The translations under genes were made by a program, and so were the position numbers. Below, piece by piece: positions 1,271 to 28,744 of a stretch of 64,000 nt of DNA. Numbering within the stretch: position 1 is the stretch's first letter; the number at the start of each line of letters is the position of its first letter. This DNA comes from Mizuhopecten yessoensis (taxonomy: Eukaryota), in assembly GCF_002113885.1 (NCBI RefSeq), contig NW_018405338.1, positions 1,176,968 to 1,240,967 of the forward strand. The letters are read 5' to 3'. The notes below the pieces were generated by a model, which made no database searches, was not told the origin of the DNA, and saw only the letters and a program-made list of their open reading frames with translations.

Positions 1271-1454
1271 CTAGTGTGTTTCCATGGTTACAGCTGTCTC
1301 CTATACAACAGTATTTACAGTGAACTTCGTTGGCACTCCCAAAGCATTGTGAACTGACAGCTCGAGCTTTTTCGACACAAGTTCGAAAAGATTCACATCC
1401 TTTATTAAGCTCTAGACCACTCGTTGTGAACGTCAAATTAGAATAACACACCGG
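1271..1454 (-). CDS. LRR-Ly6 protein, exon 7 (C-terminal half of Ly6/LU-like domain); the gene probably continues beyond the window start
   Basis: 184-bp phase 0-1 exon, TTTCAG|...|GTAAGC; PVCYSNLTFTTSGLELNKGCESFRTCVEKARAVSSQCFGSANEVHCKYCCIGDSCNHGNTL has the LU hallmarks 'KGC' and terminal 'CCxxDxCN', and is phase-compatible with exon 6. Confidence 0.82.
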
Positions 1455-3907
1455 CTGAAAAGATAAATACATATCATATAAAAAAGGACGCCATGTCTAC
1501 TCCATGTCTGATAGGTTGAACAACGTGCATATTGCCTGTCCATTGGATTCAGTAGGTGTTCTTCACTTCAAACATACGCACAACGTTAATACATACCAAA
1601 GGATCACATAGCAAAACTAGTCCCCTTTTTAATTATTTGATAAGTAGATATTTATAGTACCAGTGGCATTGATGTTTGATGATCTATCATGTTAAGCAAT
1701 AAAAATAAGCACTTGAAACAAAGAGATCAAACAAAAGGAAACTTTTGAACAATAGCGAATGCATCTGAATAATTGACAAGATCGAGAGTTATTTTCCATA
1801 TTTCATTCAGTAATTTCTCCCTTAGGTTACTTAAAAATATGTTTTAAAAGATATAGAATAAAAATGATTAAAAAACCTAAAGTGTGATCGTATTTGATTA
1901 TATGCACTGTTTATTTTTTTTAAACTAAATTTTTAGTAGAATTACAATTTAAAACTTGATTTTTAAGGAATCATGGCAAAATATTTTCTCATTAAAATCA
2001 GCATGATTATTTTCCCCAATATTGGGTTCAGCCTCTCAGCACCTGGAATGACTTGACATACATAAGATTATTAAATTTTCTTTTCCCAGAGATATATCAT
2101 AGCGAATTGAGTTGAAATATGACCACTTTTTTTTAGAAAGAGTAGACCTTTAAGACTTAAATACCAAAAATTTCCCTTGTACCCTAACCCGATCTCAAGG
2201 TAGCGACACCATTCCTTTTACAAAACAAGCTATTAGGAGAGCTTCAATATGTGAATATAGTTATATATATAAGATCGGAATCTAAATCATTTCTATGTTT
2301 TGATCCAAGTACTATGCCCTCAGAGAGAGGGCCTTACTCCTGGATCAATGCTGGTAATCTCCATCCATTAACTGTAGATGTGGTTAGATTGTGTGTATCG
2401 AAGACGTTTTTAACTTTTTTTTGCCCCGCCCCGCAGCCCCGGGGAGTAAAGTCTTCCATTTGTACAATCTTAGATGCATACATTAATGTATTTCTCGTCG
2501 TCAGGTTTCATGGAATTCCTTTCAGCATTTCAGAAAAAAGAAGTCATTTCAAGAATTGTTGATGAAGGGATGTGGAAGGGTAATTAAATAGAGGTCAATG
2601 ATATATTTATAATTGATCTCTGAAAAGAATGTATATTTGCAGAGTAAAACGTCATAATAAAGTTTATGAATAATGTATTGCTATTAACGTTGTAACATGG
2701 AATACAAAGTCAAGGATAGGAAGAAAATCAATAACCATAAATGACCTTTCTAATAAATGGACATAAAAAACAAGGAAGTACGCCACTTGCATCACCTATT
2801 CAAAATAATTAGTAATGCGACACAATTCAACGCGATATTAATAGGCAAGAACTCTTTCATATCAAGCAATTTTGACCTTAAGGTATCATTATAGGTATAA
2901 CCCTTCCAAATTAATCAGGGATGAGAGTTGTGTGTGGTTGTTTGTATTCCTAAAGACCTACTTGTATTTCATTCTAATTGCAGAATTTGATATTATAGAT
3001 ACCAAAGACTTTACTTATGAAACCATTGTTACTTTATATATGTATGAATATAATTGTCTCCTCCCTGCCAGAAAGATGAGCGTAAGACAAACATATTTGA
3101 TACAGAACGCCAAAAATAAATACCTATCATAAAGCACAACATCACATTCATGACTGTTCACCTTTCGTCACTAGTAGTCAGACAGTTGTGGAAAATAGAC
3201 CAACATTATACTTTCCATAAGTTTGCAGAGTATTCTACCGGACAATCTTTGATCTACGTTGACGACATGTCACGATCGGCACGAGTAAAGACTGTTTTAC
3301 AATGTTATAGATCATTCATGACCAACATACTGTCCTGGATGTGACATACGACATAATGACGGATACATGTTTTATGTGAGTTCACAATCTTTATGTTGTT
3401 GTTTGAGTGTCACCCAAGTTCAGTTTATTGTCATTTTATAGATTTTGAGTTAGAATTTCCTCCTTGTATTCCCTTTTGATTCACATAAAAAGAAAAGAAA
3501 ACTATTTTTTTTAAAATCTTTTATTGGTGTATCAACTTTTTCAAAATGATACACGTGAATATAACTCTATCACAACATAATGAACAAATCTCAATACCAC
3601 TTTTTAAAACATTAATACTAAAACAACAAGACTTGTAAGCCACTTTATAAGATATATGCCCAGCTCTTTCCGAGCAAACTTCCGTCGTCAACTTTTATCA
3701 GGTATGTTGATGAAGTGATATGCATGCTGAAGTTCCTGTAATAAATGTTTAACAGTTGTCTTTGATAATATTAAAAGTATCGAAATATATCTCTGAGGGA
3801 ATAATCGCCATGCATTCCTCACTTAGAGCCAATAATTCTTCCATTGAAGACAGTACGTAGTAAAATCGTTCAAGAATTGTCAATATAATAAGTTGTTACA
3901 TTGTGTG

Positions 3908-4065
3908 TATTCCGTCTTTGCGTATTGCAGAGTTATCTTCTCTTGGGATCAGGTATTGATTGTTACGTCACTTGTTTGTGAGAGTAACGTCACCAATTTT
4001 TGAGAAAACGACGTTATTTCTTTTACACAAACCAATGACGTAACAATCAATACGCAAAGACGGAA
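3908..4065. mobile_element. MITE family A copy (right arm internally deleted)
   Basis: TATTCCGTCTTTGCGTATTG...CAATACGCAAAGACGGAA; same family as 23313, 52657 and 56486. Confidence 0.8.
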
Positions 4066-4155
4066 GAGGGAAATCATAGAAAACCTTCAAAGCTGAAACA
4101 AAAGTGTGATAATTAATTTTCAATATAACAGACAAGAATTGTAGAAGTAACCGGA

Positions 4156-4377
4156 TAATATGGTGTCCACCGATGGATCGATGGACGGACCACCTGATGA
4201 CAGTATCCCCCTGGCCTCGTTGTGGGAGGTTTATAATATGGTGTCCACCGATGGATCGATAGACGGACCACCTGATGACAGTATCCCCCTGGCCTCGTTG
4301 TGGGAGGTTTATAATATGGTGTCCACCGATGGAACGATGGACGGACCATCTGATGACAGTATCCCCCTTTATAATAT
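4156..4377. repeat. 78-bp tandem repeat, ~2.8 copies
   Basis: Unit ATAATATGGTGTCCACCGATGGATCGATGGACGGACCACCTGATGACAGTATCCCCCTGGCCTCGTTGTGGGAGGTTT; explains the three overlapping repetitive ORFs. Confidence 0.95.
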
Positions 4378-5683
4378 GCAATTAAAGAATCATATTTGGT
4401 AATACGTCAGCAGAATTTCTAAGTGTGCTCATACAATCGATAAGTGGACGTTACAAAGTAAGCAGCATATTATGATCTTATCCTTGTTATCAATGCAATG
4501 ACTGGGACCAGTCACCTGCCATAAAAAAAAGTTTATCTGCAAAACTAAATTTTGTCAGTGCAAAGTAGCACGAGAGCAGCTATGTATATCCATTAGAATT
4601 TTTTAAAAGGGCACATTGTTTAGCACTTTTAATCAAACATTTTCACAACAGATCTACAACTGAAATATGAATCAGATTTGGAGAAGTGTTTCGGCAAACC
4701 ATATATAAAACTGAAACATCAACAAATTTGTCAGCGAAACCTCCGACAATTTAGCAGGGGAGCCACAAGCGTTGCTAAAATAAACTTCCGCTTATATCTG
4801 GACATCCATGATGTGTTTATTATTTTATCGGTCTCCTACTTTCTTTTTATCGTATTTTCCATTCTATTTTGATTTCTTTCCATATGTGTAAGCACTGCGG
4901 TATATGTAATATTGACACAACATCTTAGCAGAATTAATTTTTAAGCATATGCAAAAGTTTATAATTTGGAAAAAGATTAAAAAGAATGAAAAATATACTA
5001 AAACGTGGACATAAGAGTCATTTCATAATGATTTAATTTGATAAGTTCGTTGTCCTTGTTATCAAATAAAGTCCTATACCTAAATTTAGTGCACTACTGC
5101 ATCCATTTGTCTGATAAGTTGCCAGAGTCATACAGTGACACGCCTGGTTCGTACTACCATAAACAATATTTTTTACTTCAAAGTGATTGTAGTGTAAACA
5201 AAATATCCATTTATACGACTTTGACTTCATGGTACTCAACTATCCGAGACGTGAGCAAGGAAATACCAGTCCGATATCATTATAATATATCATGACGTCA
5301 TCCCTTTCTGTGTTATGTCGTCCTGTCAACATAAATAAACATTTCCCTTGATGAACCTCTAAAAAGGGGACAGTACTAGGGAGATACTAAGGAGCTCATT
5401 TTTATATTTAACCATCGAGAAGAAAAACGATGTATTGAAAATGTGTCGAAATGGCGAAAGTGTACAATAAACTGATCGACAATCGGACAATTCGTCTACT
5501 TAATATGGGAGTGTATGTCAGACTCATACACAGACATAAAGAAACAGACCAACAAAAATTCTGCAGTTTGTGGAATGGTCAATCAGAGTTGGATTGCCTG
5601 CCCTTGTACCATTTCTCTCCGCTAGGTTGCGCTCTTTTGTCAAAACAAAGACCAAACTGTTGAGAAGCGCCTTACGATAAATA

Positions 5684-6513
5684 TTGATGAACGGAGGAAA
5701 CAGCAGGAGGCAATTATAGCATATACCAAACTTGATGTTGGTAGTTATTTAGTATATGTTGACTTATGTCAAACCCTAAGTGAGTCGTCAGAAGAAGAAG
5801 GAAATGAGGAAGAAAAATGCAAAGTCTTCCTGATAAGACTTATTTTTATTTGAATTTCTAATTAATTTTATCCTTTGTTACACAAGCGGCTCCACTTAAG
5901 CCAAACACATATTGACCACGCGTACATCACGTGAACAGTCAACGCTGATTGGTCAACTAAAGGCGGTCACGGTTGAGTGGAGCGCACTTGAACCTCACCT
6001 TCGTCAGTGATCAGCAACAGTGCACAGACTGATTTTTGTAAATATTGACAAAAACGCACCCTCCACCATCCCTTCTGACGCCTTCCTTTCGGTTAATGTT
6101 GTTTATTCAGTTTTATTTAATGCATTTCATTGTAATAATTGGTATATTTTAACCGTTACTACATCATAAAAGATGTACATGTATATCTAAAATAACGTAT
6201 ACGTTAAGATTATACAGAAGGAACAGGTATTTTGATTCATTTGTATTGGCGGTTTTATGGGCCGGAATTTCATCAAAAAATATTATTTAGTAATATGGAC
6301 GATCAATGATAAATTCAACGGCCACCCGTAGGTGAGCCATTTACGGCATTTCGTCGTTTGGAGTTATATTTATAGATTTTGATGAACGGAGGAAACAGCA
6401 GGAGGCAATTATAACACATGCCAAACTTTATGTTTGTAGTTATTCAGTATATGTTGACTTATGTCAAACCCTAAGTGAGTCGTCGTCAGAAGAAGGAAAT
6501 GTGGAAGAAAAAT
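5684..6513. repeat. Pair of ~135-bp direct repeats (5684-5818 and 6379-6513)
   Basis: Both read TTGATGAACGGAGGAAACAGCAGGAGGCAATTATA...CCCTAAGTGAGTCGTC...GGAAGAAAAAT. Confidence 0.9.
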
Positions 6514-7618
6514 ATCACTACAGCATGAACGCATTTATTTTAGGAATGAAACATACTTGCATGTGGTTTACATCGATTGCACGTGTAATTTAAAAAAAAA
6601 ATCTTAACTGCTAATTAGTATATATTTCGCATGCAACTTTTCAGTAAAATTAATAATAAGTTATGATGGTAGGATTTCCTTTTGCAAAAACATGAATCAT
6701 GATTTACAAACAAACTCATCCAATTACAATCGTATTGTATGATTATCCGACGAGCGATTACTAAATAACAATATCATAAATCGTGCTGTCTGAAAGTAAC
6801 ACAATCCATAATGAGACATATAAAAACTAATTAACGATGTATCTGTTAATTTAATGAACACCATTCGCACTGTTTGGTGGTAGTAAGATAGGTTTTTGAC
6901 GATGTGTTTATCATTTTTATGTCAAATAACGTATTATTAAGTATTATTTATGTCAGTGGACAAGCTTAACCTGTATAGTAATGATCTGTTTCCAACGTAT
7001 TAAGACATTGTTGTGTGGATTTGGTATAATGATAAAAAGAGAACAGGAACAAAATGGGCGGATAATCACATAGATATATGGTAGCCTTCTTACCCTCCGC
7101 CTCCCCTCAAACCTGCTTTGCCTGTGCCCTTTGACCCTTTAATCTTGACCGATGACCATACAAATCTAATTAGATATAAAACTCGATATAACCATTATAT
7201 GATGTATATCTGAACTAAGTGTGTTCAGGTGTTGTTTATTAGATATCTTGTACACAAGCTTTTTATTACCGAAGGACGGACTGGTGGACGCACACACGGA
7301 CGGATGCAGTGACAAAGCGATTACTTTATATCCCTCTCGCTACATTCGGGTATAATAAGAATGGAAATGCCTTAAAGTAAAGATACTACTGCATCAGTCA
7401 TTATCTCGAAGAAGGTATGTTTGACTTGTGGTATTCTCCCTACAAATATTAGCGCTTTTTTAGCTTATGACCACATCAATTGTCAATTTATTGCTCCCTC
7501 AGTTTTCAATCCCCGCATAAAATTTTAAACCCATCAATAAACCTCAAAGTGTTTTGCTGATTTTAGTTTTTAATTCATGGAAAACAACAATGTAAAACTG
7601 TAGGGTTGTCAGTATTAA

Positions 7619-8880
7619 AGGGACACCACGTGAAAAGGCGTGTTTTTTTTAATGAATGTATGTATTGTATGCACTTCCACTTATGTTACCACGCTATCCC
7701 CATATTCATAGTCCGTTCCAAATGTCCAGTTTGACCACTTGAATTGTTCGGGAAAGCCCTGCTAAAAATAGCGCCGATAACGTCACCCGACTAGGCAGTA
7801 AACACAAGTGGTGCGAGCGAGATGAAACGGTTTCCAAAGNNNNNNNNNNNNNNNNNNNNNNNNNNNNNNNNNNNNNNNNNNNNNNNNNNNNNNNNNNNNN
7901 NNNNNNNNNNNNNNNNNNNNNNNNNNNNNNNNNNNNNNNNNNNNNNNNNNNNNNNNNNNNNNNNNNNNNNNNNNNNNNNNNNNNNNNNNNNNNNNNNNNN
8001 NNNNNNNNNNNNNNNNNNNNNNNNNNNNNNNNNNNNNNNNNNNNNNNNNNNNNNNNNNNNNNNNNNNNNNNNNNNNNNNNNNNNNNNNNNNNNNNNNNNN
8101 NNNNNNNNNNNNNNNNNNNNNNNNNNNNNNNNNNNNNNNNNNNNNNNNNNNNNNNNNNNNNNNNNNNNNNNNNNNNNNNNNNNNNNNNNNNNNNNNNNNN
8201 NNNNNNNNNNNNNNNNNNNNNNNNNNNNNNNNNNNNNNNNNNNNNNNNNNNNNNNNNNNNNNNNNNNNNNNNNNNNNNNNNNNNNNNNNNNNNNNNNNNN
8301 NNNNNNNNNNNNNNNNNNNNNNNNNNNNNNNNNNNNNNNNNNNNNNNNNNNNNNNNNNNNNNNNNNNNNNNNNNNNNNNNNNNNNNNNNNNNNNNNNNNN
8401 NNNNNNNNNNNNNNNNNNNNNNNNNNNNNNNNNNNNNNNNNNNNNNNNNNNNNNNNNNGGCTATCCGGAAGAATACATGCACCGTACTAACTGCTACGGC
8501 AGTTATTTTCTCCTTTGAATACTGCCCACCTGCAATAATGATTCCGTAACGTACTCCTTGCGCTATCTTTTGACCATTTGGCAACTTTTCGTTTCGTAGC
8601 TGACACGGTACAACACTTTTCTTTCGCTTACTTCACACGGCCAGTCATTTTGTTTACAAAGAAATGGTGTGCTATGCGCATGCGCCAGTAGAGGGAAATC
8701 CCTGAACAAAACGTTGGTCAGACAGGTAGAAATACCGATGATTTTCTTAGATTTAATCATTTTTATGAATCTATTTCAGCCAAATCCGATCGTTATTTTC
8801 CATAAGGAGTCTCACTTGATATGTTTATGTAGTATTTGAAAAAAAGACAAAAAATAAAGTTACTTCACCGTGATGCCCCT
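7619..8880. mobile_element. Non-autonomous DNA transposon with TTAA target duplication (Kolobok-like), spanning the gap
   Basis: Left TTAA|AGGGACACCACGTG, right CACCGTGATGCCCCT|TTAA: imperfect TIRs beginning AGGG, flanked by TTAA. Confidence 0.6.
7840..8458. other. Assembly gap (619 N)
   Basis: Run of n characters. Confidence 1.
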
Positions 8881-9728
8881 TTAAGATCACGATGTCGATT
8901 CTTGCATTTATTTATTTTCTCTCCGTTTTTCAAATATGCATCATTCTTAAACTATATATATGTAAAATGTTTTCAACTTGGTTTTTATATTGAATTCTTT
9001 CGTTAAAAAATAAGTAAACTAAAAGTTTAATCCGGGTGACAATGGTATAAATAGACTTGATGGTACTCTTTACTTAAATACAACTGGAGTAAAATAGACA
9101 AAACATTTACCTTAGTTCAAATACGTCGGGAGAAATGTGAGCCTTAATTAAAATCAATACGAGCAGGCATTAATAGAACCAAATTAACAACAAAACCAGA
9201 TATTATGAAACCCTACAGAGAAAGGAGAGGCTAGATTTTTGGAACTGGTCAACAGTTCATTTAACTCAGTGCACCAACCATAACGCCTCTTTTATAATCC
9301 CTGTCGATGTCATATCTACCTGACACATGTTTATTAGCTAGCAACACCCTACGACACATTGAACTTATCTATTATTATAAGCTGTCACACACTCATAACA
9401 ACATTTTCATTTGTTTGATTATGATCACGATGAGGACGGTGTTTGTGATATTGACTCGGTCTTAATATATTTTTTAGAAATAGTAGGTTAATATTCATTT
9501 TATGACGTCATTTCAATGGTAGCGACACAATGCTTTCTGCAAAATGCAGTATTTTTTTCCTGAAATTTCACACGTTTTATCATTGTTAAGGATTTAAACA
9601 TTGTTAAGCGTCAAATATAACAACTAAGGACTTTTATTTCGGCGAATTTTCGATGAAAAAAGTCTTTCTCAGGTTCATATAACCACATTATCACCTCAAC
9701 AAAAATCATTCATTGATAAACAGAGGAT

Positions 9729-9866
9729 ATTTAATGGTGTCGTCATTAATAACAAATATATTTCACGAGTGTGGCTAATATTTTGATATTTTTTACTCGT
9801 GTAAAATATCAAAATATTAGACACACTCGTGAAATATATTTGTTATTACTAAAGACACCATTAAAT
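9729..9866. mobile_element. Fold-back (palindromic) MITE-like element
   Basis: ATTTAATGGTGTC...TTTCACGAGTGTGGCTAATATTTTGATATTTT / AAAATATCAAAATATTAGACACACTCGTGAAA...GACACCATTAAAT. Confidence 0.75.
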
Positions 9867-10736
9867 TTTCTATTTATTACATTTTTAAAGCATAAACATA
9901 AACAAAAATGTAATGCATTAAAAAAGGGCAGGAATCAGGAGCGTAATAATTAGCACCATATCCTAATGACGTCACACTTGACAACAAGGCTGCAAGCCAT
10001 TTTGAATGGGATACTCAACGCAATTCCGACGTTTTCTGCTATTTTCTGGTATAATTGCTTATAAAAAATGTTATTAATTGTATATTAATGTAAATACTTA
10101 TGTGTGTGTACCAAACATTTACCATAACAGCCACTTATTCTGCTATCGCTTCATTTGAATCTGAACAAAAAACGTTGCCTTTGAATGCAGCGAATAGAAG
10201 ATGCCGTTATGATTGGTCAATATCAAAAATATCACTTTTGATATTTGTCACAGTGTGAAAGATATCAGTTTTATCAAGTTGATAAAATCCAATATTTCAC
10301 TGGCAAAAATGTAATAAATGTTTTATCCAACCTGTTTCTTTAAATGACGCCAAAATTGAAGTCAGACATTGCTGCTTTCAAAATAAAATACATTCAGTTT
10401 ATGTTATTATGTTGAATACTTTTGAGAAATTGGTAATCAATTAGTTTACATTCATAAATCTCTACCGTTTTGAAACACGTTTTCTACCTCTAAGACATAC
10501 CAGCATTTTAAAAATATTTGCCTTAGTTTGAAAGGCAGTCCTATAAATTATAAATACAAAATCGTAAAACATGTGTTGGATAAATTGTGCTGAATTTGAA
10601 CAAGGACAGTGCTATATCATTGAAAAAGTGGGTCTGTAAAAGGATCATGGTCATTTCACGACATTCCTGAAAGTTCCATGAATCGATCTGGTAGTTTTTG
10701 ACAGGATATCGTTGAAAAGAAATTACTACACAAAAT

Positions 10737-12110
10737 TCACGCCTGCTCTATCTTTAAACGGCATTTGTCCCAATGCTCCCGACATTCTTCACGAAAGTTC
10801 TTGTTAATAATTGTATAAATTACAGGATTTGCAGCATTGTTAAGATAAAACAGATGCATGAAAAATGTTTCCATCGCCTTTCCGGTCTCTGACTGGCCGG
10901 CCATATACGACGGCGCGAATAACCAGCAAAACCTGATTACCCAGAATGGAAGCCAGGAGAGCAGGAACACCGCCGTCACTAAAAACAGGATTTTCGCCGC
11001 CTTTAACCTGGCCTTGTTACACTGTATACTCTCGTCCTTCCATTTCAACTTATCCTTTCGGGTCATTCTCGCAATTGCGTAGTTTTTCCTTCTTTGATGA
11101 TTTACTGAGCTGACCTTGTTGTCTTTCTGAACATATTTATTACAGTTTTTCAATATTGGCTGGTGTATCTTCTCTGTATCCAAATCCTTATATACACTCG
11201 CTGTGAACATGCTGGCGGTTAACGAAACATTCTCGATTGTTGACACAGAACAAATATCCGAAGATCTCGACAAGACCAGTGAGGGACTACCTATACCATC
11301 CTTACTTGTACTGCCTTGGTCTAACGAGGTTAGGAACGATCTTTTGTTTGCATATTTTTCGTTCTTTTTCGATGAATCAGTGACCAAGTCTTTGGGAGAA
11401 ACAAGTCGTAAGCGGCGTCGATAGGCTGTACGGGCAACACTGAAATACAGTATCATCATTCCTAAAACAATGACGCTAAAGTTTACAAACATAACCATTC
11501 CAAATGAAGCCATCGACAGTGACCCTTGATAAAGATCACTGAAGTCGCATACATATCCTTTGATAGTTCCTTGAACCGGAGTTGGTACTTCTATCATCCT
11601 CTTTCCGTAAAACTCAAGCAACGGTAGACTGACAACTATGCCTATTGCAAACGTTGCGATCAAAATACTCGTGGAATGTTTCTGATATTTTAGGAACTGA
11701 AATGGTCTGCAAATGGCAAGATACCTGTCCACGGCTACCACAAGTAAAACGATGGCGGATACGGACAATATGGAATGAATCAAAAACTCGAACAATTTGC
11801 ATGTCAATACCTGTTGTTGGTTATAGCTGTTAAATAACTTGGATATAACGTAGGGATGAATAGCCACGCAGGAAGTTAGATCTATACAGGCCAGAGTGAT
11901 TACGAAGCAGTTGGCAGTGGTTCGAACCTTACGAACGCTGTATATCCAGATCACAATCAGGTTACCGGGGATACCTATTATCATCAGAAGACACATAAAC
12001 GATAGCAAGGGAACACTCCGTATAACCATTTCATCATTTAGCTGGTCGATTGTCTTTTTCCAGCAAATAAAATCGCATGAAGCAAAGGAGGAATTGTTGC
12101 TAGTATTCAT
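10737..12110 (-). CDS. Rhodopsin-like (class A) GPCR, peptide-receptor type (CCK/gastrin-receptor-like orphan), intronless CDS, 457 aa
   Basis: Seven hydrophobic segments; TM1 GIPGN, TM2 LACID, TM3 Cys (CKLF) and VDRY-LAICRP, ECL2 Cys (YVCDF), long Ser-rich ICL3, TM6 FLLSWLPF, TM7 NNAANPVIY; N-terminal N-glycosylation sequons NTS/NNS/NSS. Confidence 0.96.
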   Translation of the reverse strand: MNTSNNSSFASCDFICWKKTIDQLNDEMVIRSVPLLSFMCLLMIIGIPGNLIVIWIYSVRKVRTTANCFVITLACIDLTSCVAIHPYVISKLFNSYNQQQVLTCKLFEFLIHSILSVSAIVLLVVAVDRYLAICRPFQFLKYQKHSTSILIATFAIGIVVSLPLLEFYGKRMIEVPTPVQGTIKGYVCDFSDLYQGSLSMASFGMVMFVNFSVIVLGMMILYFSVARTAYRRRLRLVSPKDLVTDSSKKNEKYANKRSFLTSLDQGSTSKDGIGSPSLVLSRSSDICSVSTIENVSLTASMFTASVYKDLDTEKIHQPILKNCNKYVQKDNKVSSVNHQRRKNYAIARMTRKDKLKWKDESIQCNKARLKAAKILFLVTAVFLLSWLPFWVIRFCWLFAPSYMAGQSETGKAMETFFMHLFYLNNAANPVIYTIINKNFREECREHWDKCRLKIEQA

Positions 12111-12423
12111 TATGATAAATACAATTTTTCACGAACATCTGAAATGAAAAGAAAGTTTTTTTATAATTGTATGTGATAAACTCAAAACCCATCATTTTTT
12201 TTACAATTATCCGTTTTCTGATGGACGTTTCAATATCCTTATTTTATTTTATTTTTAATGAGATTTTTCAATTAATATTTCATTTTTTGTTTACTGTAAA
12301 AAATTTATTCAGTTTTTTGTTTGCTACGGTATTAAAGCATTCAAAGTAGTTAAGGTAATAAAAACATACTAAAACACTGAAATATCATAACCGCCAGATC
12401 ACATAAGACTAAAACAGACTTAC

Positions 12424-12640
12424 CGGAGAATATCAATGAAAAACATTTAAGCTGTATTACTAGCAATATCGCAGATACGTATAGAACTAACGTTCGGTTA
12501 TGTCAGAATACCATCAAACGGTTGAAGATGATGTAACAGAAATGAATAATGTTATTCCTGAAGTATTTTGCCGAATAAAGTCATAATAAATCACAATGTG
12601 CGCAGGATGTTTTTGGCTTCCTATGAGGATCAATGGACAT
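12424..12640 (-). other. Probable 5'UTR exon of the GPCR
   Basis: Bounded by acceptor ATTTTGTAG| and donor CCG|GTAAGT. A further donor TTG|GTAAGT lies at 12939/12938, and a strong acceptor CTTTCTTTTCATTTCAG| at 12139/12138 sits 28 nt before the GPCR ATG. Confidence 0.55.
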
Positions 12641-15600
12641 CTACAAAATGAATTACTTTTCTACGAGTATGACTTTTGTTCATAAAATATCAACACTGTC
12701 TTAATTACAAAGGTTTTTTCTAACCTTTCACATCATTATCATTCCACGAAAAAAAGAGAGTAAATGCCTTTATCTGGATAACTGATAATTCCATGTAGTT
12801 TTGCGTTGAGGTTTCTCAATATTTCAGGACACTAGTATCTCATCTTAGTGAGCAGATGATGTATCTTCTATGCATCATAACAAAACACTTTTCCTAGAAA
12901 ATATCTATTGACATTAGAACGTATGAATTCCAACTTACCAACGTTTAGATGTCCAAATAACGGTAATGTATTTCCTTGTACACCTTTCAATTAATCAAAA
13001 TCAATCACCGACTCCAACTTCCGAAGAGCCACAGGATATAAGTGCGTGCGGCATGGCAATCATCACGGTAGGTATGTCATCGCTTGGAGCGTTCGCGGCG
13101 TTTTCAATATAGCCTTAGTAGTAACGAGCGATCGATAACGGGCGATTCCTCTATCAATAGAGAACCAATCGCGTTCCCTTACTATCAGTCATATTGCGTA
13201 TACATCGTGTATTTGCTAAACCACTGGGAATTGTCTCTGATCGTATCGTCAACTGATGTTGATATTAAACGCTATTGTTCATACTGACTACAAATCACTG
13301 AAAATGTAATACCTCTTGAGAGAGATACTATGATACTCATAACGAGAGATCTGAAAGCTGATTCTTATCTGCATCTGAATGGACATAAGCTGATTCAATT
13401 GTATGCATATTGTACTATTGAAAACAGTTGTTCGGCTTCCTGTATCGAGTGGTATAGGTGCAATCATTTGTTAATGTCTTCTGTACATCTTTTTTAGATA
13501 TTGGTTGGTGGAGTATGTCGGCAGGTTTTTAGCCCCAACAGTTTTATAAATTGCCACAGTAATATCCTTTAAGAAGTGGAACGAATCTGCATACACACTC
13601 TTTACTCATTATCAATTTCATATTTACCAATGCTCCTATCAACGCTTTGAATTGCATTTAGTTAAGAGGGCTTCCTTTTCCCATTTGTATTTTGAATGCA
13701 GTTTAGACAAATACGGGTTTCCAAGATTGTTTTTGTTTAACTCCTTGCATTACAGATGAGTCTTAGCAGTACAAAACAGTTTAATGGTGAAGTGTACTTC
13801 AAATTGTGCATGCTGTTTCACTATCACCTAATTTTATGTGTTTCAAGTGTCTTACGTTTGACATTTCATATTTGTGTTTCAATTTGTATTGTATTTCTAC
13901 TGATTATTTCATTTAGAAAGTCGGTAAACTCTGCTTATGGATCATCAATGCCTGAGGTTGGCCGTAAACTTCAAGTTGGAAATTTATTCCTACTTGGTTT
14001 ACATTAATATACTAGCTTACAATATACCATACTAATGGAAAAAAGTAACGAAACTTTAATTGTGGCTTTACACTTCCCCTATTTGTCAGTATGATTGATC
14101 CTCCGGGTGACAGAGAGGTATCGCCACAAATTGGTGTATGTCTACAAAGCATAACCTTGCTGTACGTTTTTATCAAATAAAGACAAAATTCAGGCATCTT
14201 GCACCTGTTATAAACTTGAAAACCATTCAAACACGAACTCCTGATCTGCACAGATACAATGCACAACGAGTTAGTACAAAAACCAGTAATAACCAGAATA
14301 CGGCGGACGTCTGTGGTTGTGAGAGGAATTGCACTTATTTTGCAGTTTGGTGTTCATGCATCAACCATTGCCCATTTAGTTAGACGTCGAAGACACTCTG
14401 GACGTTAACAACCCGACCCAGAAGAAGACGTCCATGCATAATGTCTGGACGTCAAGACAGAGCGCGAGAATGTCTCATACCCGGAATCGTTTTCGGGACT
14501 TACAGCACTAAATCAGCCAATCAGCAAGTGTTACATACGATTGTAATCCCTACCTTTTTTCCCCCGATTAAACACAGTGCCTCTGGATAAGTTAAATGGG
14601 TAATTGTTGACATATTTTTCATTGAATGAATTCTATAGATATTTAACTTTAAATAAACGTATAGTTTTAGTAGATTTTAATAAATGATGGCGGATTGATA
14701 TGGGGTCAAAAGTAAGGGGGTGTTCCCGGTCCACTTCAACGGTTTGGCTTGTAAACGTCTGGTTGTCAAAAGCAGACACCTGTAGCACTCTTATATGCCA
14801 CTAACCTCGCCAAAAACGTCTTTTGGAGCCTTTTTCTGGTATGGATCTATAGATATAGACAGTTGTCACTAGTGCTGAACTTCAAATATAAAAGCTATTA
14901 GCTCAAAAGCATAGTAATAACACATAGTAAATGAGGTAAACGGCGAACAATTGGTAATTGATATTCATGGACGCCGAGTGTGCCCGAGAAGTCGGTTGAA
15001 CCGCTCTTTACAAATGCTCGAATAAGGGTAAAATTTTCAACCTTAATTTTGCATCGATATTAGAAATATTTTATTCAATATAGTTCTAGGTCGTTAAATA
15101 CTGATAATTAATCCTTGGAAATGCTTTAATTAGTTTTTTATCAGTCACAACGGCCCAAAAAAATCACAAAGTTTTTTCGAAATTGAATCAATGTTACCTT
15201 ACTAATTTCAGCTTATTTTAGCGAACTGAAAATATACATTACTAGAATTAAAACAGAGCAACGCTTTGATAATCTGTGAACCAACAATATCTGTAGTAAA
15301 AAAATATACAAAAAAATAAACGAGCACAATGATATGAAGCGCAATATTATGAAGCGAAAAGCGCTTCAAGAAGTTACCGCTTAATAATGTATGTTAATAG
15401 TTTACTTTTAGTCTGAAATTCATTGTTTTGTTATTTATATGTGCATATACACAATTAAAATTAGATATTTCTTTAATGTTATTTTTATTTATTGATTTAT
15501 TTAATATCATTTTTTATTTTTATTTAATATCTACGTGCTTCACCAAACATTACGTGACAAAATAACGCAGTTCACCACAGCATGGGACATAATGTGACAT

Positions 15601-16822
15601 TAAAAACATGTCATAAACAGAACGAAAGGATGTTAATTTATTCGTTTGTGTGAAAGTTCTTTTACAATTAGCAATATATGAACTCAAATAGATTCAAATG
15701 AATAATAGTGTCAATCATGCTAATTGATGCTAGTTCGTCAAAAGTGAAACATTTCAAATGAAAAATAATATTACATTCAAGATAGACGCATGGTTAATGC
15801 AAAGGTGGTTTTTTTTTAAAGAATGACTAAGGGCCAATTAAAACATTCGCGATCACCACTTTTATCTTGTGTATCACGTATTATTTCATATGATTAATCT
15901 TATTTAAAATTGTATTTTCTTCGTGTAATTTATAAACAATATTCATTTATGACCATAACAGGTTTTGTTGGTGGGAATACCGGAGAAAATCACCGACCTG
16001 AGGCCAGTACCTAGCGACTGCCTCGAACGAACAACCCAGGGGTATAGGGCTATCAATCGTATATACTACAGACTTTACAATATTCGACTCCTTGATAACG
16101 TCACATTCCGGATACTCGGCAAACTAAACCCTGTGCAAAAATGTCACGTTTCGTAGTAACAACAGCCTACCTGTCACGTTTCGTAGTAACAACAGCATAC
16201 CTGTTGTGAAGCAAATGTTTATAACAAACTTATTATTCTCTTAACAAGCATTTGTCGCAAGTCTATTATCATCATTACTTGTACGGTATTTCATTGTCAA
16301 TGAATTAAATCTCAAATCCTGTCCACAACTAACTAAAAAGAGAATTTATCGCACAATCACTCAAAGTCTAGTTTTAGTCAAGAAACATGTACAACGTTCA
16401 TTTTGTACTAAATGCACTTCTCTTCAAAGAGTAAAGTACGACACACACAAGTGGAAGAGCCTATAGAATTTTATGATTGATACTGTATCCTAAATATTAA
16501 TCATACTGCACTATACAGCGGTTCGTTCTTCAAGAAGCATTGGTAAACATCAAACAAATTAATTACATTTAACATATTTAAGTAAAATTCCTTATATACC
16601 AGTTGATTTTTGGAACAAGGTTTAAAACATATATTTGCGAAACCTAGTTTTACTGCCAACATTTTTTATTTGAAACTATATAGGGGTTTGGAAATTAGGA
16701 AGGGAGATGTTCGTTTAAACGGACATTCTTGAAAGACGGTTGCAGGGAGCTAGGTGCCAAATGAAAAGGGAGAATTATATCGGGGTTTATTGGATGTAAA
16801 TTAAATTGAACATGGTACTTAC

Positions 16823-16932
16823 TTTATCTTCAGTTAAACACTGTACTGTAGTTGTTGTTTCGTCACATTCCCTATCACTCTTTTTCCGGGAACAACCTTC
16901 ACAATCAATACCCTGATTGAAAAGATCCTGTC
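16823..16932 (-). CDS. LRR-Ly6 protein, exon 6 (N-terminal half of Ly6/LU-like domain)
   Basis: 110-bp phase 1-0 exon, TTGTAG|...|GTAAGT; (G)QDLFNQGIDCEGCSRKKSDRECDETTTTVQCLTEDK contains the CxxC start of an LU fold. Confidence 0.85.
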
Positions 16933-17282: not shown

Positions 17283-17449
17283 CAGTGCATCCACCAAAGT
17301 CAGATACGTCCTGAATTGGAAGATTGTTTTTGTTCGCACAATACGCGTCCAGCACGCTGACGCCAAATGCTGTTGACATGAAGTCGTACCATTGTTTGAA
17401 CTTCCTCATCTCGCAATCACAAATAAGACCGGTGTTTCCGGTAAAAGCA
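17283..17449 (-). CDS. LRR-Ly6 protein, exon 5 (LRR C-terminal cap)
   Basis: 167-bp phase 2-1 exon, ATACAG|...|GTAGGA; (L)AFTGNTGLICDCEMRKFKQWY...DAYCANKNNLPIQDVSDFGGCT matches the LRRCT pattern 'GN..L.CDC....F..W...C...C'. Confidence 0.88.
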
Positions 17450-18551
17450 CTGTATGGAAAGATAACAAAAATGTTTAAGTAAGAATATACTTTGTAAGAT
17501 GTATACCATCAGCTTTAAATATTCATGCTTGCAATGCCTGTGAGGACATGCTTTTTGTTGTTTAGGTCTTTCATTTAACAGTGAGTATGAATCTGAATAA
17601 ATTCAGACTGTGCACATTGTATGAAAATAATTCACTAAAAATTTGATAAAGGGTAACAATGAAATTCATATATCAGAAAAGGTTCACAAAGAAATGTATT
17701 ATGATTTATATTATTTGTTTAAATTGTATGAATAGTAAAACACTTGCATCTGGTTGATTTTGGTCAGGGTAACGAAAGAATCGCCAACTACTCTTGAAAT
17801 CTGGTTATTTGAAAGGTCCCTGAAAGTATAAAGAATCGGCACTAGTATATTTAAACATGACCATACAATTATGAGGCAGGACAACGAGAGGTTTTAAGTA
17901 AATATCATTATAAAACCTCTTTAAAAACTTTGTTAAAATAAGACTTGAAGATAAGGCGAAAAGGTCAGTCAACTGTAGCCATCTTTGATTTTGGGTTGGC
18001 AAAAAAATTAATCAAATTGCCCATGGGAGGATCCTTCGTGCTTCTTTTCGTTAAAAATATACCCAATGATCTAGAGAAGTTGAAACATTTTGGTCAATAA
18101 GAGCACAATGCGAAGAAATAATGATATCTACTCAGTGTCGTCAGAGGAACGTTTATAACCAGCCAGGTTAAAATTAGCCCTGTGGAATTTCAGACGTACT
18201 AAATGACACACCAATCTTGAATTTCGAATCTGCCCGAAATAATACTATGTCAAGCCAATGGAAGAAAACAATATACAACGCTCAGCAAAAACCAATCAGA
18301 TAGAAATTAAGATCTCGAAAGTCACAACAAATCAGAAGTTGTAAAGGAATTTTTAATCGAACTGAATAAAACAAAAAAGTGTAAAAAAACGCGATATTTA
18401 GTATAGAAATAATGTCGTACATTTTGGATAGTTACATTAAAAGTTGGATTTAACTCAGTGTGACTCCTACGCAAGTAGTTCATACGTAGTTGGGGTATGA
18501 ATGCATTTCGATTCGATGGTTGCGAGTACTAATCTATGGGTATCATACAAT

Positions 18552-18712: not shown

Positions 18713-18934
18713 TATATGGGTGTCATATATCTGCATTTGTCTGGAACTTTTAGAGTGATTTTAAGTTATTTTTAGCAATAAATACCTGTATCTGTATCAT
18801 GTCATATAAATCAAATCCAAGCAATGTCAAGTTCTCAAATGGGGAATCGATGACATCACAAGACATACTAACTGGCATAGTCAAAATATCGACTTTATAT
18901 CACGCAAGGAAATAGAAGATTTTCTGATACTTAC

Positions 18935-19006
18935 AGTGTTGCAAGGTTAGACAAATATCGGAACATTGTAGATTCAATCCTTGTTAATAAGTTGTTCTGC
19001 AAGTTC
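18935..19006 (-). CDS. LRR-Ly6 protein, exon 4 (one 24-aa LRR)
   Basis: 72-bp phase 2-2 exon, TTACAG|...|GTAAGT; reads (L)NLQNNLLTRIESTMFRYLSNLAT(L). Confidence 0.9.
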
Positions 19007-20103: not shown

Positions 20104-20175
20104 AGGGTCCTGAGGCTGTATAGCTGATCAAAGCTTCCACCAGCTATATTCTTGATCCTGTTATCGTTGATATGT
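20104..20175 (-). CDS. LRR-Ly6 protein, exon 3 (one 24-aa LRR)
   Basis: 72-bp phase 2-2 exon, TTTCAG|...|GTATGT; reads (L)HINDNRIKNIAGGSFDQLYSLRT(L), a typical LxLxxNxIxxIxxxxFxxLxxL repeat. Confidence 0.9.
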
Positions 20176-20480: not shown

Positions 20481-20634
20481 CAGGATCTTATATCAGTTTC
20501 CATTTCATATGAGAGATATGAAATCAGTTTAAATACTTTCAATTTATCGGGCCCCTGGCGAGCTAAAATGAAAAAAAAAACTCGTGACGAGTTTCATAAA
20601 TATCATAGGAAATGAAAACCAGTGTAAGATCCTG
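20481..20634. mobile_element. Degenerate inverted-repeat element
   Basis: CAGGATCTTATATCAGTTTCCATTTC ... GAAATGAAAACCAGTGTAAGATCCTG. Confidence 0.6.
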
Positions 20635-21269: not shown

Positions 21270-21341
21270 AACGTTTCTAGTAAATGTAGATTAAGGAAGT
21301 TTCCTGAATTAATCCATGTTATCATATTGTTTTTCAACATC
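21270..21341 (-). CDS. LRR-Ly6 protein, exon 2 (one 24-aa LRR)
   Basis: 72-bp phase 2-2 exon, TTTCAG|...|GTAAGT; reads (L)MLKNNMITWINSGNFLNLHLLET(L). Confidence 0.88.
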
Positions 21342-21622
21342 CTGAAAAGAAAAAGGAAAGTTCAAGGTTACAGCAATATATATATAACTTATAACTCAAA
21401 ATGAAAAATGAAAGGACTACGATGAAGACTCCTACTAAGAGGTTGAATAATTCAACGATAATTTGAATAATAAAACACTAATATCAAACAAAGGGCAAAA
21501 TAATATCGAACAAAGAATATGTATAAATATAAATGATATATGTTATTTAGAACATTTGATTGGATAGGAAAAGAGAAAGTGAGATATATGAAAAATACAG
21601 ACGTGGAGAAACAGCAAGAGAG

Positions 21623-22380: not shown

Positions 22381-23312
22381 CAGCTAGATCATTGTTATTT
22401 TTCAATTAATACGCTTATTTCAAAATGTCGAGTTCGGTATTAGGAAGACTAGGAAAGTGTTGAAGGATAAAATAACAAGATCCACGCCCTAAACGAGGAT
22501 GTACACGTGCGAATTGCAGCGACGCTACCTGGTTAATTAATCCGCTTGTCACCTGTTGAGACCTTAACTGGATGTGGTACCACCTTACTTATGTTATCAC
22601 AATTGTATAGTGTCGAGTTAAAATTCTTTCAAAAACATTGTAGTTTATGTTCCTGATATGAAAAATATAACTTTACATGTGTTTGGTATCGTGTGTTTTG
22701 GTCGAGAGAATGCATTATTATAATTATGTTTGGTTGAAACTATTAACTTGTGCACTGGAGTAAACACTGTCGAGCACTGGAGGTCACATCCATGTGCACT
22801 GGAGTTAACTTCAGTGCAAAAGACAATTTTCTTTATCACATTATGTCTGACCTTTCCAACAGTATATACATGCTTTGATTTTCTCCCCTCCCACCTGCTC
22901 AAAAAAAGAAAGAAAGAAAGAAAGAATAATAATAAATATTAGATGTTACCTTATATATATTCATATACTTGTTATTGATTGATCTAAGCAGTATCCTTTA
23001 ACGAAAGAAGTATGCGTTGAGATATAATATACTAACCTATTAAATTATACTAACATACCAACTTGGATCCGTGGTACATGTATAAACATGTATTGGTGGT
23101 CTATAATTTATAATACTTTGTCTTATAGACATATTCATTAAAATTAATATAATAGTTTTAACAGTATTAGGTCTACATAAAAAACATGTCTGTATATAAT
23201 TGGTATGTTATACACAAGTCTTTTTCTGTATGTTCATTAAAAAAAAGGAAAGTTCGTGCATGTAGGTAACTACATGTATTGTAAATAAGAAAGAAATACT
23301 ATGTATGTTATA

Positions 23313-25712: not shown

Positions 25713-26399
25713 TATGTGCACTTCAAATTGCACCGTATACCAAGCTAAGTTTGCTCCCAACTATAGTCAATGAGAGTTACGCTCATAGATTCAACGAAAG
25801 GAAATATCAACCAAGCTCACTTAATTCTTTTTTTTTTAAAGTAAAACCTCATTCCACAACCATGGTTTACAAGTGTTTTTGGACATGGCGACAAACGGAC
25901 GTTTAATATAATGCTGAGTTTTCAAATAAAAGTAAACCCATTGAAAATCAATTCTCGGATATGTATCTGTTTATGATCTCAACAGTGATATCTGCCTATA
26001 TACTTTATAGTTAATATGAGTAATGGCCACACACAAAGAATATAGAGTATCATTATTAACTGAAAATCAAAACAAAAGATATTTAGGGTCACATAAAACA
26101 AGGACAGTAATCATTCTAAAGACGACTACAAATATAAAAGGTATAAAGGGCCACATAGTAGAAATATGAGAGAGATGACCATATGACAAACACACGTGAT
26201 TGCACCTATAAAACATTGTAATAGATGCAGTATGCCAAAAATAAATTTCACTGCTCTGTACAATATTTTTAAAGGAAACTAAAGAATAAAATGGTCACAT
26301 GATTGTAAAGGAGCAATCATCATTAACTAGCTATAAACAAATGGAATCAATGACCTAATAGAATACGTCATTTAAGGAATATAAATATAAGAAAATATA

Positions 26400-26900
26400 A
26401 AGCCACGCATAGAGTCAGATCCGCCAACATTTTCAGGACTGTGAATATAAGGCAACATAAGGTCTCATAACAGATTAAGAGCGACCATTTAACGGACTAT
26501 GAATAAGAAATATAAGGCCACACAATTGATTTTGTGCCAGCATTTTAAGGACTATGAATAAAAGGCAACATAAGGGCACACATATAAATAGAGCAGCAAC
26601 CATTTTACGGACTATGAATAAAAGGCAACATAAGGACAAATATAAATAGAGCCAACATTTTAAGAACTATGAATTAAAAGGAATAAAATGCCACGCAATA
26701 GAAATAGAGCCACCATTTACGGATTATGAATTAGAGGCAACGCAACATAAGACAACAAATAAAAATAGAGCATTTTCTTTTACAGATTATGAATAAAAGG
26801 AAATATGTGGCCATCCAATAAATTTAGTGACAGCATTTTAAGGGCTATGCTTTAAAAGGAATATAAAGAAATAATTTGAAGTACTATGATTAAAAGTGAA
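26400..26900. repeat. Degenerate ~60-bp tandem repeat
   Basis: Recurrent CATTTTAAGGACTATGAATAAAAGGCAACATAAGG...ATAGAGC. Confidence 0.8.
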
Positions 26901-28493
26901 CATATTGCCACATAATAGATACCGTTGGAAGTAAAAGAATTCTAAAGAAAAGGAAAATCAATCATATGAAAAACTGTTTGTTTTCCTCACAACAACACAG
27001 GTTAACCATTTCTAAAGTTGTTTAATTTTAAACCAGCTGTACCCGAGGTGAAAACCTAACACTAATTTCCAGAGTTTTTTTCCTTACGATAGCAATATAG
27101 TGTTTCATTAACAAATAAGGTTGTTATCGTAAAGATTGCTGTTTTGATCGAGACGAAGCCTAGAAGGATATTGGCGCTCACCATAGAAAGATCTTTATCA
27201 GATCTACAAAAGATGATATTTTCCTTCTTTGCTCTTCAGTTCCGTTATAGGTACTATCGCCCCTCTACGTAATTTATGAGAAAAGGCAAAACTGTCCAAA
27301 TCAAAGATGACCGCCTGTTAGCCATTTCGTTTATTCGATCAGTCTCAAGAGTTCGTATGCACAAATAAAGACCAAGGGAAACCTAACTATCTAATACGAG
27401 AATGATCTCTCCAGTACTGAGAAATAGCGATACAATCATTGAATGTCAAAGTCCAAGATGGCCGCCTGTCAGACATTTTGTTTATCCAATCAGTCCCAAG
27501 AGCACACATGCACAGTTAGAGACCAAGGGAAACCTATCCATCAAATACGAGAAATATCTCTCCTGTACTTTGTGATAAAAAGCGCTAACAGAAATTGTTT
27601 AAAAATGGACGAAAAACGACAGACGACGGACGGACGGACGACCAACTCAGGGTGATTTGAATAGTTAACCATCTGATGAATTACTGTTTGCGTCAGCGTT
27701 GCTTTTTTTTTTTCTCTTTTTCCTAATTTCAAGTTAATATGGGTCATATAACGACTCTGTCTCCACCTGCGATAGAGTGAAACTAGAGGGACTTGAGTAA
27801 GGCTTCCAGTGCTACTGAAATGACACCGTTGACACACCTAGTGACATCGCACATTGCCAAATAAGTGAATGGACTAATTACTTGTATGAAATGATACGTA
27901 TTTCAGGGTTATAATGTCGTAAAACTTGTGACAGATTCATTGAGTGTATGTCACCCTGTCAAAAGAACCAAAAGGTTAATCACGTGTGTCAAATGAGACG
28001 TTAACTAACGAATAAACAAACGAAAGAATGAGCGAATAATATGCAAATCAGAGTTTTTTTTCGGGTTTTAACAGCCAGGTTCATGTGAGAACGGGGTGTG
28101 GTTTTGTATCAGTCTAATATAAAGTATAGTTGAAATCAATCTGAGCGTTTTTGTTCAAAGTTTTTTCTGCAAACCATTTCGGCAACAAATATTTTCAAAA
28201 TTATTCTTTAGAGACAATCTGAACATTTACAAATATTTCAGTAATTTCTGTCCCGGATGAATTTTTTGGAGTCCTAATGATGTTGTTTCTTTTGGGTTTT
28301 TTTTAATTTCAGGATTTAAAAATGTAAAATATAAGATGAAAATATTGCACTAATTAAAGCGTTCAGCTAAAACCAAAAGTTTTAACAACAGAGCCATGTT
28401 CTTGAACGGATAACAAGGAGTTTTCCGTGTGATCTGTAAAAGTCATCATTGTTTGAGTTCAATAATGGGGTCAGAGGAAGGGGGGTTACTTAC

Positions 28494-28744
28494 AACACCT
28501 TGGAGTCACGAGGAATGCCCGCAGGTACTTCAATGAACCCTTTGGAAGAACAGTTGACCAGGAGTCTATCATTGCTGAGAATCGAACATGGGCACGTGAT
28601 GGTATTTCCAGGACTGCATAAGTTGTTATCCAGAAAGTTAGTCGTTGTAGACGAGTTGACTGGTAACAATACGACACACACCATGACTAATCCAACGGTC
28701 CAACTGGTCCTTAAAACGGCACATACTTTACTTCGTGTCGACAT
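28494..28744 (-). CDS. LRR-Ly6 protein, coding exon 1: signal peptide + LRR N-terminal cap
   Basis: ATG at 28744. MSTRSKVCAVLRTSWTVGLVMVCVVLLPVNSS (hydrophobic leader), then CSPGNTITCPC...LLVNCSSKGFIEVPAGIPRDSKV (LRRNT-like C-C-C-C, 'VP.GIP'). Ends phase 2 at donor TT|GTAAGT. Confidence 0.88.

What the first reader, a model, noticed from the sequence alone, without database searches (positions are those of the whole stretch)
1271..28744. Hidden gene encoding an LRR solenoid fused to a Ly6/three-finger-like domain
Seen: seven small exons, mostly invisible to the ORF track, join with canonical GT-AG sites and consistent phases (2-2-2-2-1-0) into 928 nt (~309 aa) without a stop. The product is signal peptide, LRRNT, three 24-aa LRRs on exact 72-bp exons, LRRCT, then a 12-Cys domain IDCEGC...REC...VQC...PVC...KGC...RTC...SQC...VHCKYCCIGDSCN. 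Established: CxxC...CCxxDxCN is the Ly6/uPAR (LU) signature; LU proteins such as Lynx1 and Quiver/Sleepless modulate receptors and channels; capped LRRs are ligand-binding ectodomains. Inference: an LRR+LU fusion is an architecture I do not recognise from characterised families. It could be a lineage-specific immune or neural receptor/co-receptor.
Basis: partly seen in the sequence, partly recalled or inferred. Interest (0 to 1): 0.75.

Follow-up and report, generated by a model that had tools for sequence, protein, structure and literature searches.

The report
Scallop three-finger adhesion GPCR
These exons are the spliced front end of a 1,176-residue scallop adhesion receptor (leucine-rich repeats and a predicted three-finger domain on a GPR126-type base) that likely signals through G proteins; the family spans molluscs, and such receptors are already reported.

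Summary
The exons are real, but they are not a stand-alone LRR+Ly6 protein. RNA shows eight exons in the window, not seven: a fourth 72-bp LRR exon with a GC donor (17819-17748) was missed. The gene runs on past position 1 into a 25-exon, 1,176-aa adhesion GPCR: signal peptide, capped LRRs, 12-Cys three-finger (LU) domain, SEA, HormR-like domain, GAIN/GPS (HL|T), 7TM and a PDZ-type tail. One RNA contig links LU to GAIN. An AlphaFold model (pLDDT 84) matches LU proteins (Lynx2, LYPD6B, GPIHBP1; Z about 8) and the SEA domain of Gpr126 (Z 10.2). Relatives with this layout occur in bivalves, gastropods and cephalopods, multiplied in octopus. LU-bearing GPCRs of molluscs, arthropods and starfish are published (PMC13719153, PMC11595613), and the octopus expansion is 'group 3' of PMC6408891. 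This scan had already noted the family twice in octopus DNA. Added here: a repaired gene model (the public annotation is split), the missed exon, and the reading of the receptor as a GPR126-type core with a swapped outer module. Ligand and function are untested. New member of a known kind; interest 0.3.

The parts
28494..28744 (-). Exon 1: start codon, signal peptide, LRRNT cap (aa 1-83)
   Evidence: Sequence; hydrophobic stretch aa 9-27; aligns with orthologues P0002 and P0003.
21270..21341 (-). Exon 2: LRR, 72 bp
   Evidence: AG/GT, phase 2-2; junction to exon 3 in X8 and X9
20104..20175 (-). Exon 3: LRR, 72 bp
   Evidence: Both junctions in X8 and X9
18935..19006 (-). Exon 4: LRR, 72 bp
   Evidence: Junctions in X8 and X9; the downstream one also in X24
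17748..17819 (-).
   Evidence: Joints 17818/18934 and 17449/17748 (CT..GC) in X8, X9 and X24; present in the orthologues
17283..17449 (-). Exon 6: last LRR strand and LRRCT cap
   Evidence: Both junctions in X8, X9 and X24
16823..16932 (-). Exon 7: first part of the 12-Cys LU domain (Cys 1-4)
   Evidence: Junctions; fold
1455..16822 (-). 15,368-bp phase-0 intron that splits the LU domain; holds a same-strand intronless class A GPCR ORF and an assembly gap (7840-8458)
   Evidence: Joint 1454/16823 in X8, X9 and X24; ORF; N run
1271..1454 (-). Exon 8: rest of the LU domain (Cys 5-12)
   Evidence: Junction to exon 9 in X8 and X10
1..1270 (-). Intron 8, leaving the window. Exons 9-25 (SEA, HormR-like, Thr stretch, GAIN, GPS, 7TM, tail) lie at G000:C2011:1175748 down to 1151125 (loci L002-L004)
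   Evidence: Exons 9-15 joined by RNA; exons 16-25 from splice sites, open frame and orthologues; Pfam GPS and 7tm_2

Best explanation
The exons encode the outer part of a transcribed, 25-exon scallop adhesion GPCR (LRR - predicted three-finger LU - predicted SEA - HormR-like - GAIN - 7TM) that likely cuts itself at its HL|T site and likely signals through a tethered agonist when the LRR/LU tip is bound or pulled. Shown: splicing from the LRR exons through LU and SEA into GAIN, an open frame of 1,176 aa, GPS and 7TM matches, and conservation across molluscs. Predicted: the LU and SEA folds. Inferred from ADGRG receptors: autoproteolysis between L823 and T824, the following TNFALLM segment acting as Stachel, G-protein coupling, and scaffold binding by the C-terminal -STI. 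The SEA domain has neither an autoproteolysis-type motif in its strand 2-3 loop nor a furin site, so it likely acts as an uncleaved spacer, as in zebrafish Gpr126. LRR and LU take the place of CUB and pentraxin in ADGRG6 and likely form the ligand-binding and regulatory tip. The most likely ligand is a matrix or neighbouring-cell protein.
For: RNA joints: 6 of 6 tested in the window and 7 of 7 from exon 8 to exon 15 in X8. One 2,707-nt contig of X8 carries exons 7-15; its remaining 1,360 nt compare with 1,333 nt predicted for exons 16-23. Open frame without a stop. Pfam on single exons: GPS E 3.8e-17, 7tm_2 E 2.2e-9 and 6.7e-11, GAIN weak at 0.008. Full-length orthologues in two other scallops are annotated ADGRG6-like; best PDB matches of one are ADGRG6 (E 1.6e-87) and ADGRG2. 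Model pLDDT 83.9. Residues 8-100 match GPIHBP1 (Z 8.3, rmsd 2.9, 77 aligned), LYPD6B (8.3, 3.7, 85) and Lynx2 (8.1, 2.6, 85); residues 97-207 match the Gpr126 SEA domain (10.2, 3.5, 98). HHalign to lancelet LYPD6-like proteins gives probability 96.8. HL|T/S is kept in 12 of 13 relatives with a Pfam GPS.
Against: No cleavage, ligand or signalling was tested. Pfam finds no LU or SEA family in the scallop sequence, the PDB sequence search gave LU proteins only at E 0.5-1.8, and Foldseek's listed rows hold no LU protein. LU Z-scores near 8 are at the level the tool calls middling, and the LU part of the model has lower confidence (blocks of 65-92). HormR rests on a weak Pfam hit (E 0.044 in P0002). 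One octopus relative (P0023) has a non-canonical GPS. X22 showed no junction and X24 only 1-4 reads per junction, so expression is low in those samples.
Confidence: 0.8

Rival explanations
1. Same receptor, but it signals without cleavage or Stachel exposure, through shape changes of the LRR-LU-SEA region, or works mainly as an adhesion scaffold through its PDZ-type tail.
For: Ectodomain conformation tunes Gpr126 signalling (PMC6954182, passages). One octopus member has lost the canonical GPS. The SEA domain has no cleavage motif.
Against: HL|T/S and the following segment are kept in 12 of 13 relatives with a GPS.
Confidence: 0.14
2. One reading: a stand-alone secreted or anchored LRR+LU protein, as the main product or as an important short isoform.
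For: The public annotation ends a 285-aa model (P0001) by reading into the intron after the SEA exon. Seven of 34 relatives hold LRR and LU without GPS or 7TM.
Against: RNA splices exon 8 to 9 and on into GAIN in one contig. The intron read-through tail of P0001 is not among the listed contig pieces. The truncated relatives are annotation models, one of them labelled partial. Both other scallops have full-length models.
Confidence: 0.04
3. The 12-Cys domain is not an LU domain but another disulfide-rich module.
For: No Pfam LU hit for the scallop sequence. The model has an extra helix at residues 60-73. Z-scores are near 8.
Against: Among the 50 rows, those that align only to this half are all three-finger folds (GPIHBP1, LYPD6B, Lynx2, PSCA, Lynx1, Prod1, TEX101, CD177, TGF-beta receptor II, irditoxin). 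All 8 PDB sequence hits are three-finger folds. Relatives P0014 and P0038 hit UPAR_LY6_2 below the cut-off.
Confidence: 0.02

Closest known systems
LU-domain GPCRs of molluscs, arthropods and starfish (PMC13719153; starfish LyAr2/LyAp2 in PMC9410279 and PMC11595613)
   Same: A 7TM receptor with an LU domain in its extracellular part. The 2026 survey reports them in molluscs, and its Fig. 2 legend lists LRR and GPS among its domains. The starfish ones are annotated as adhesion GPCRs.
   Different: I could not see the figure or supplements, so whether its molluscan example is this LRR-bearing family is likely but unverified. The legend names no SEA or HormR domain. The passages read give no ligand or signalling data.
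Octopus-expanded adhesion GPCR 'group 3' (PMC6408891)
   Same: Group 3 contains A0A0L8GYR2, a member of the cluster of hit P0030. Its nearest non-cephalopod sequences include KP79_PYT06667, whose tag neighbours that of P0001 (PYT06668) and which is likely the GAIN-7TM half of this gene.
   Different: That paper mentions LRR, GPS and 7TM. The passages read do not discuss LU or SEA, though its supplement has an unlabelled SSF57302 hit at aa 136-215 ('snake toxin-like' is my recall). Only one complete LU-SEA copy was found in the scallop, against many in octopus.
Vertebrate ADGRG6/GPR126 (CUB-PTX-SEA-HormR-GAIN-7TM)
   Same: SEA-HormR-GAIN-7TM order; best sequence match in the PDB and best fold match for the SEA domain.
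   Different: LRR and LU replace CUB and pentraxin. There is no furin site in SEA. Orthology was not tested; the published tree places the clade near six human ADGRG receptors (ADGRG1-6) together.
ADGRA receptors (LRR-Ig-HormR-GAIN-7TM; layout recalled)
   Same: N-terminal capped LRRs on an adhesion GPCR. One relative is auto-named ADGRA3-like.
   Different: LU and SEA instead of Ig. No ADGRA entry is among the best 60 PDB sequence matches shown, which are led by ADGRG6, G2 and G4.

Membership tests
Adhesion GPCR (class B2) | Secretin-family 7TM | tested here: met
   7tm_2 above cut-off on two exons; seven hydrophobic segments after aa 845
Adhesion GPCR (class B2) | GAIN domain with GPS just before TM1 | tested here: met
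   GPS E 3.8e-17, GAIN weak; the orthologue aligns to ADGRG6/G2 over aa 526-1116
Adhesion GPCR (class B2) | Large modular ectodomain on the same transcript | tested here: met
   RNA joints from exon 2 to exon 15; one contig spans LU to GAIN.
Adhesion GPCR (class B2) | Autoproteolysis, Stachel activation and G-protein coupling | not testable with these tools
   The HL|T motif is present at aa 822-824; activity needs the bench
Ly6/uPAR (LU) three-finger domain | Cys pattern CxxC...CC...CN | tested here: met
   12 Cys with spacing 2-8-8-7-16-5-10-8-2-0-4; the pattern holds in 22 of 34 hits
Ly6/uPAR (LU) three-finger domain | Three-finger beta fold | tested here: met
   Predicted model matches GPIHBP1, LYPD6B and Lynx2 at Z 8.1-8.3; HHalign 96.8 to lancelet LYPD6-like proteins
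Ly6/uPAR (LU) three-finger domain | Pfam LU family above cut-off | tested here: not met
   No hit for P0001 or the single exons; sub-threshold hits in 2 receptor-type relatives
Lynx/Quiver-type channel modulators | Small GPI-anchored or secreted LU-only protein | tested here: not met
   LU is an internal domain (aa 244-328) of a 1,176-aa 7TM protein
SEA domain | Ferredoxin-like SEA fold | tested here: met
   Foldseek: MUC16 SEA E 4.5e-4; VIA: Gpr126 Z 10.2, TMPRSS6 10.0, MUC16 9.8; Pfam SEA sub-threshold in P0008 and P0038
Cleaved SEA domains | GSVVV-type or furin site between strands 2 and 3 (PMC6954182) | tested here: not met
   No furin motif in 15 of 15 rows scanned; a GS-type motif in 2 of 15 and none in the scallop model
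ADGRG6 orthologue | CUB and pentraxin domains | tested here: not met
   Pfam on the full-length orthologues finds LRR, GPS and 7tm_2, no CUB or pentraxin
ADGRG6 orthologue | One-to-one grouping with ADGRG6 in a tree | not tested
   No vertebrate sequences were in the tree
Octopus group 3 clade (PMC6408891) | Homology with a listed group 3 member | tested here: met
   P0030 hit at E 5e-5 on LU-SEA; its cluster holds A0A0L8GYR2, listed in group 3. The scallop gene is a relative of the clade, not part of the octopus expansion

The most novel reading that the evidence does not exclude
This gene is the conserved, unexpanded molluscan counterpart of the adhesion GPCRs that octopuses multiplied and express in arm nerve cord, suckers and skin, and its built-in Lynx-like finger binds nicotinic-type receptors or another receptor in the same membrane. 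It would then be an adhesion GPCR that carries its own channel modulator and couples touch or adhesion to cholinergic or chemotactile signalling.
Probability: 0.07. Interest if true: 0.75.

Novelty: new member of a known kind. Interest (0 to 1): 0.3.

Why it matters
It gives a complete, RNA-backed model of a receptor family that octopuses expanded and express in arms, suckers and skin (PMC6408891). In the scallop only one complete copy was found, which makes it the simplest member in which to look for a ligand. It also shows a SEA-HormR-GAIN-7TM core, as in GPR126, carrying a different outer module, with LU, SEA and HormR each bounded by phase-1 introns as exon shuffling would predict. That is useful for adhesion-GPCR evolution, but the class of receptor is already reported and no function is shown.

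Tried and rejected
The single-sequence AlphaFold run of P0001 failed (pLDDT 37.8) and was not used. ESM Atlas gave no usable hit. Pfam found nothing on the LU, LRRCT, LRRNT, SEA or HormR exons. Foldseek's listed rows held SEA and ferredoxin-like folds and no LU protein, probably because the SEA half filled the list. The seven-exon model is open but was rejected because RNA includes the GC-donor exon. P0037 (Flg_hook and YadA domains) is a chance hit and P0033 is a lancelet LU-only protein; both were left out of alignment A2 and the tree, and P0031 was left out of A2 too. The tree is the quick version, on full-length proteins of 16 rows (the model plus 15 relatives with GPS or 7TM), without an outgroup; Dreissena is a long, unplaced branch. 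Paper searches found no paper on this scallop gene and none describing LRR-LU-SEA-HormR-GAIN in words; the figure and supplements of PMC13719153 could not be seen and may show it. No complex was predicted, as there is no candidate partner. The nested class A GPCR was not followed beyond Pfam and RNA depth.
Full report
Observation. The window is G000:C2011:1176968-1240967. Their seven-exon join gives 928 nt, 309 aa and no stop. Laying four RNA runs on 1400-21399 showed all 6 of the 6 in-window introns that this stretch could test. The contigs of X8 and X9 hold all six, the raw reads of X24 hold four, and X22 holds none. The in-window part is therefore 8 exons and 333 aa. Intron 1 was outside the laid stretch. 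X8, X9 and X10 are labelled RNA by guess, but their spliced joints show that they are.

The gene continues. Stretches beyond the window start contain GAIN, GPS and 7TM exons on the same strand. A second lay showed 7 of 7 joints from exon 8 to exon 15 in X8, 6 in X10, 5 in X9 (plus one two-base variant) and 4 in X24. One 2,707-nt contig of X8 carries exons 7-15 in order. Its remaining 1,360 nt compare with 1,333 nt predicted for exons 16-23. The whole model has 25 exons over 54.6 kb and 1,176 aa without a stop, and every intron is GT-AG except the one GC-AG. Exons 16-25 rest on splice sites, frame and orthologues, not on laid RNA. Single exons hit Pfam GPS (E 3.8e-17) and 7tm_2 (2.2e-9, 6.7e-11) above cut-off and GAIN weakly. 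The GPS reads CDHL|TNFALLM, with the cut expected between aa 823 and 824. Seven hydrophobic segments follow, and the tail ends in -ADSTI.

Why it looked hidden. The public annotation of this genome holds only a 285-aa fragment for this part (P0001, KP79_PYT06668, Mizuhopecten yessoensis). Two other scallops have full-length models named 'ADGRG6-like': P0002, Pecten maximus, 1,183 aa, and P0003, Ylistrum balloti, 1,168 aa. Identity to them is 88% in the 7TM, 76-77% in GAIN, 73-80% in the LRRs, 51-58% in LU and 49-57% in SEA.

Folds. An AlphaFold model of the LU-SEA stretch with 35 aligned sequences reached pLDDT 83.9. Against 48,161 chains, residues 8-100 matched GPIHBP1 (Z 8.3, rmsd 2.9, 77 aligned), LYPD6B (8.3, 3.7, 85), Lynx2 (8.1, 2.6, 85), PSCA, Lynx1, Prod1, TEX101 and CD177. 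Residues 97-207 matched the SEA domains of zebrafish Gpr126 (10.2, 3.5, 98), TMPRSS6 and MUC16. Foldseek listed SEA and ferredoxin-like folds and no LU protein. A sequence search of the PDB returned 8 weak hits (E 0.5-1.8), all three-finger folds. HHalign to lancelet LYPD6-like proteins gave probability 96.8. Against this, Pfam finds no LU or SEA family in the scallop sequence, and Z near 8 is middling on its own. The HormR-like domain rests on a weak Pfam hit and its position. LU (exons 7-8), SEA (exons 9-11) and HormR (exons 12-13) each begin and end at phase-1 introns, which fits exon shuffling (inference).

Distribution. A profile of three scallop LU-SEA stretches against 1.84 billion representatives gave 34 hits at E up to 0.001. 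By Pfam, 12 hold LRR plus GPS or 7TM, 7 hold LRR without them, 2 hold GPS or 7TM without LRR, 11 have no informative family, 1 is a lancelet LU-only protein and 1 is a chance hit. The 12-Cys pattern holds in 22 of 34. Names were looked up for 22 of 34: 20 are molluscs (scallops, oysters, Dreissena, Haliotis, Nucella, Plakobranchus, Physella, Argonauta, and nine from Octopus), 1 is unnamed and 1 is the lancelet. A quick tree of 16 rows groups the cephalopods with the unnamed sequence, the gastropods together, and oysters with scallops; Dreissena is unplaced. This fits one ancestral molluscan gene multiplied in octopods, though the tree has no outgroup. In the scallop genome the profile found this locus and one partial match on C4407 (counts are lower bounds).

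Mechanism. By inference from ADGRG receptors, the receptor likely cleaves itself in GAIN, keeps both halves together, and signals when binding or pulling at the tip frees the Stachel. HL|T/S is kept in 12 of 13 relatives with a Pfam GPS; octopus P0023 deviates. ADGRG6 is CUB-PTX-SEA-HormR-GAIN-7TM, and its SEA is cut by furin in mammals but not in zebrafish (PMC6954182, passages). Here the same inner order is kept, LRR and LU stand where CUB and pentraxin do, and no furin motif was found in 15 of 15 rows. The outer domains diverge faster than the core, as expected for a ligand-facing part (inference). Ligand, G protein and tissue are unknown.

What is known. PMC13719153 (2026; read: parts 1-3 of 4, the whole main text; figures and supplements not available) reports GPCRs with an N-terminal LU domain in molluscs and arthropods, and its Fig. 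2 legend lists LRR and GPS. [quoted passage not shown] PMC6408891 (passages and supplementary tables) describes an octopus expansion of adhesion GPCRs, LRR-bearing in 5 of 22 sequences and enriched in axial nerve cord, suckers and skin of O. bimaculoides. It includes a member of P0030's cluster, and its nearest scallop sequences include KP79_PYT06667, likely the other half of this gene (inferred from the adjacent tag). PMC11682238 (passages) added nothing specific. Six paper searches found no study of this scallop gene. Two earlier notes of this scan describe the same layout in octopus; I saw them after reaching this reading.

Verdict. A real, expressed gene and a correct LU call, but it is the ectodomain of a pan-molluscan adhesion GPCR of a kind already reported. 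New here are the repaired gene model, the GC-donor exon and the SEA-HormR-GAIN core shared with GPR126. New member of a known kind; interest 0.3.

Noticed in passing
window 10737-12128, minus strand: Intronless rhodopsin-family GPCR ORF (457 aa from the first Met; 7tm_1 E 1.4e-34) nested on the same strand inside the 15.4-kb intron that splits the LU domain. Almost no RNA depth in the four runs laid.
   Followed up: partly
G000:C4407 about 94,400-104,700, plus strand (L024, L025): Paralogous adhesion GPCR with closely similar GAIN-7TM exons. Upstream lie an IPT/TIG-like exon (Pfam E 4.5e-4) and an exon like the second half of the LU domain with 7 Cys, followed directly by GAIN; no SEA, HormR or LRR match in 57-137 kb. 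Suggests module shuffling; not checked by RNA.
   Followed up: partly
window 59821-60009, plus strand: Exon of a TSG101/UEV-domain gene (Pfam UEV E 1e-23), preceded by tandem repeats that copy its splice acceptor region.
   Followed up: partly
L004 about 8880-8906, minus strand: Candidate optional 27-nt exon in the cytoplasmic tail, matching an insert present in some Pecten isoforms and in Ylistrum; tail splicing looks conserved among scallops.
   Followed up: partly
L014 2619-2788 (exon 13): Thr-rich linker between HormR and GAIN encoded by a trinucleotide run; RNA contigs of X8 and X9 show 6 gap positions here, likely a length allele.
   Followed up: no
proteins P0016, P0018, P0025 (Octopus): Octopus relatives carry 12-14 LRR motifs before the LU domain against 3-6 in the full-length receptors: the LRR solenoid is lengthened in some duplicates.
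   Followed up: partly
window 7840-8458 and 21550-22400: A 619-base assembly gap flanked by transcribed repeats, and a long low-complexity repeat in intron 1.
   Followed up: no
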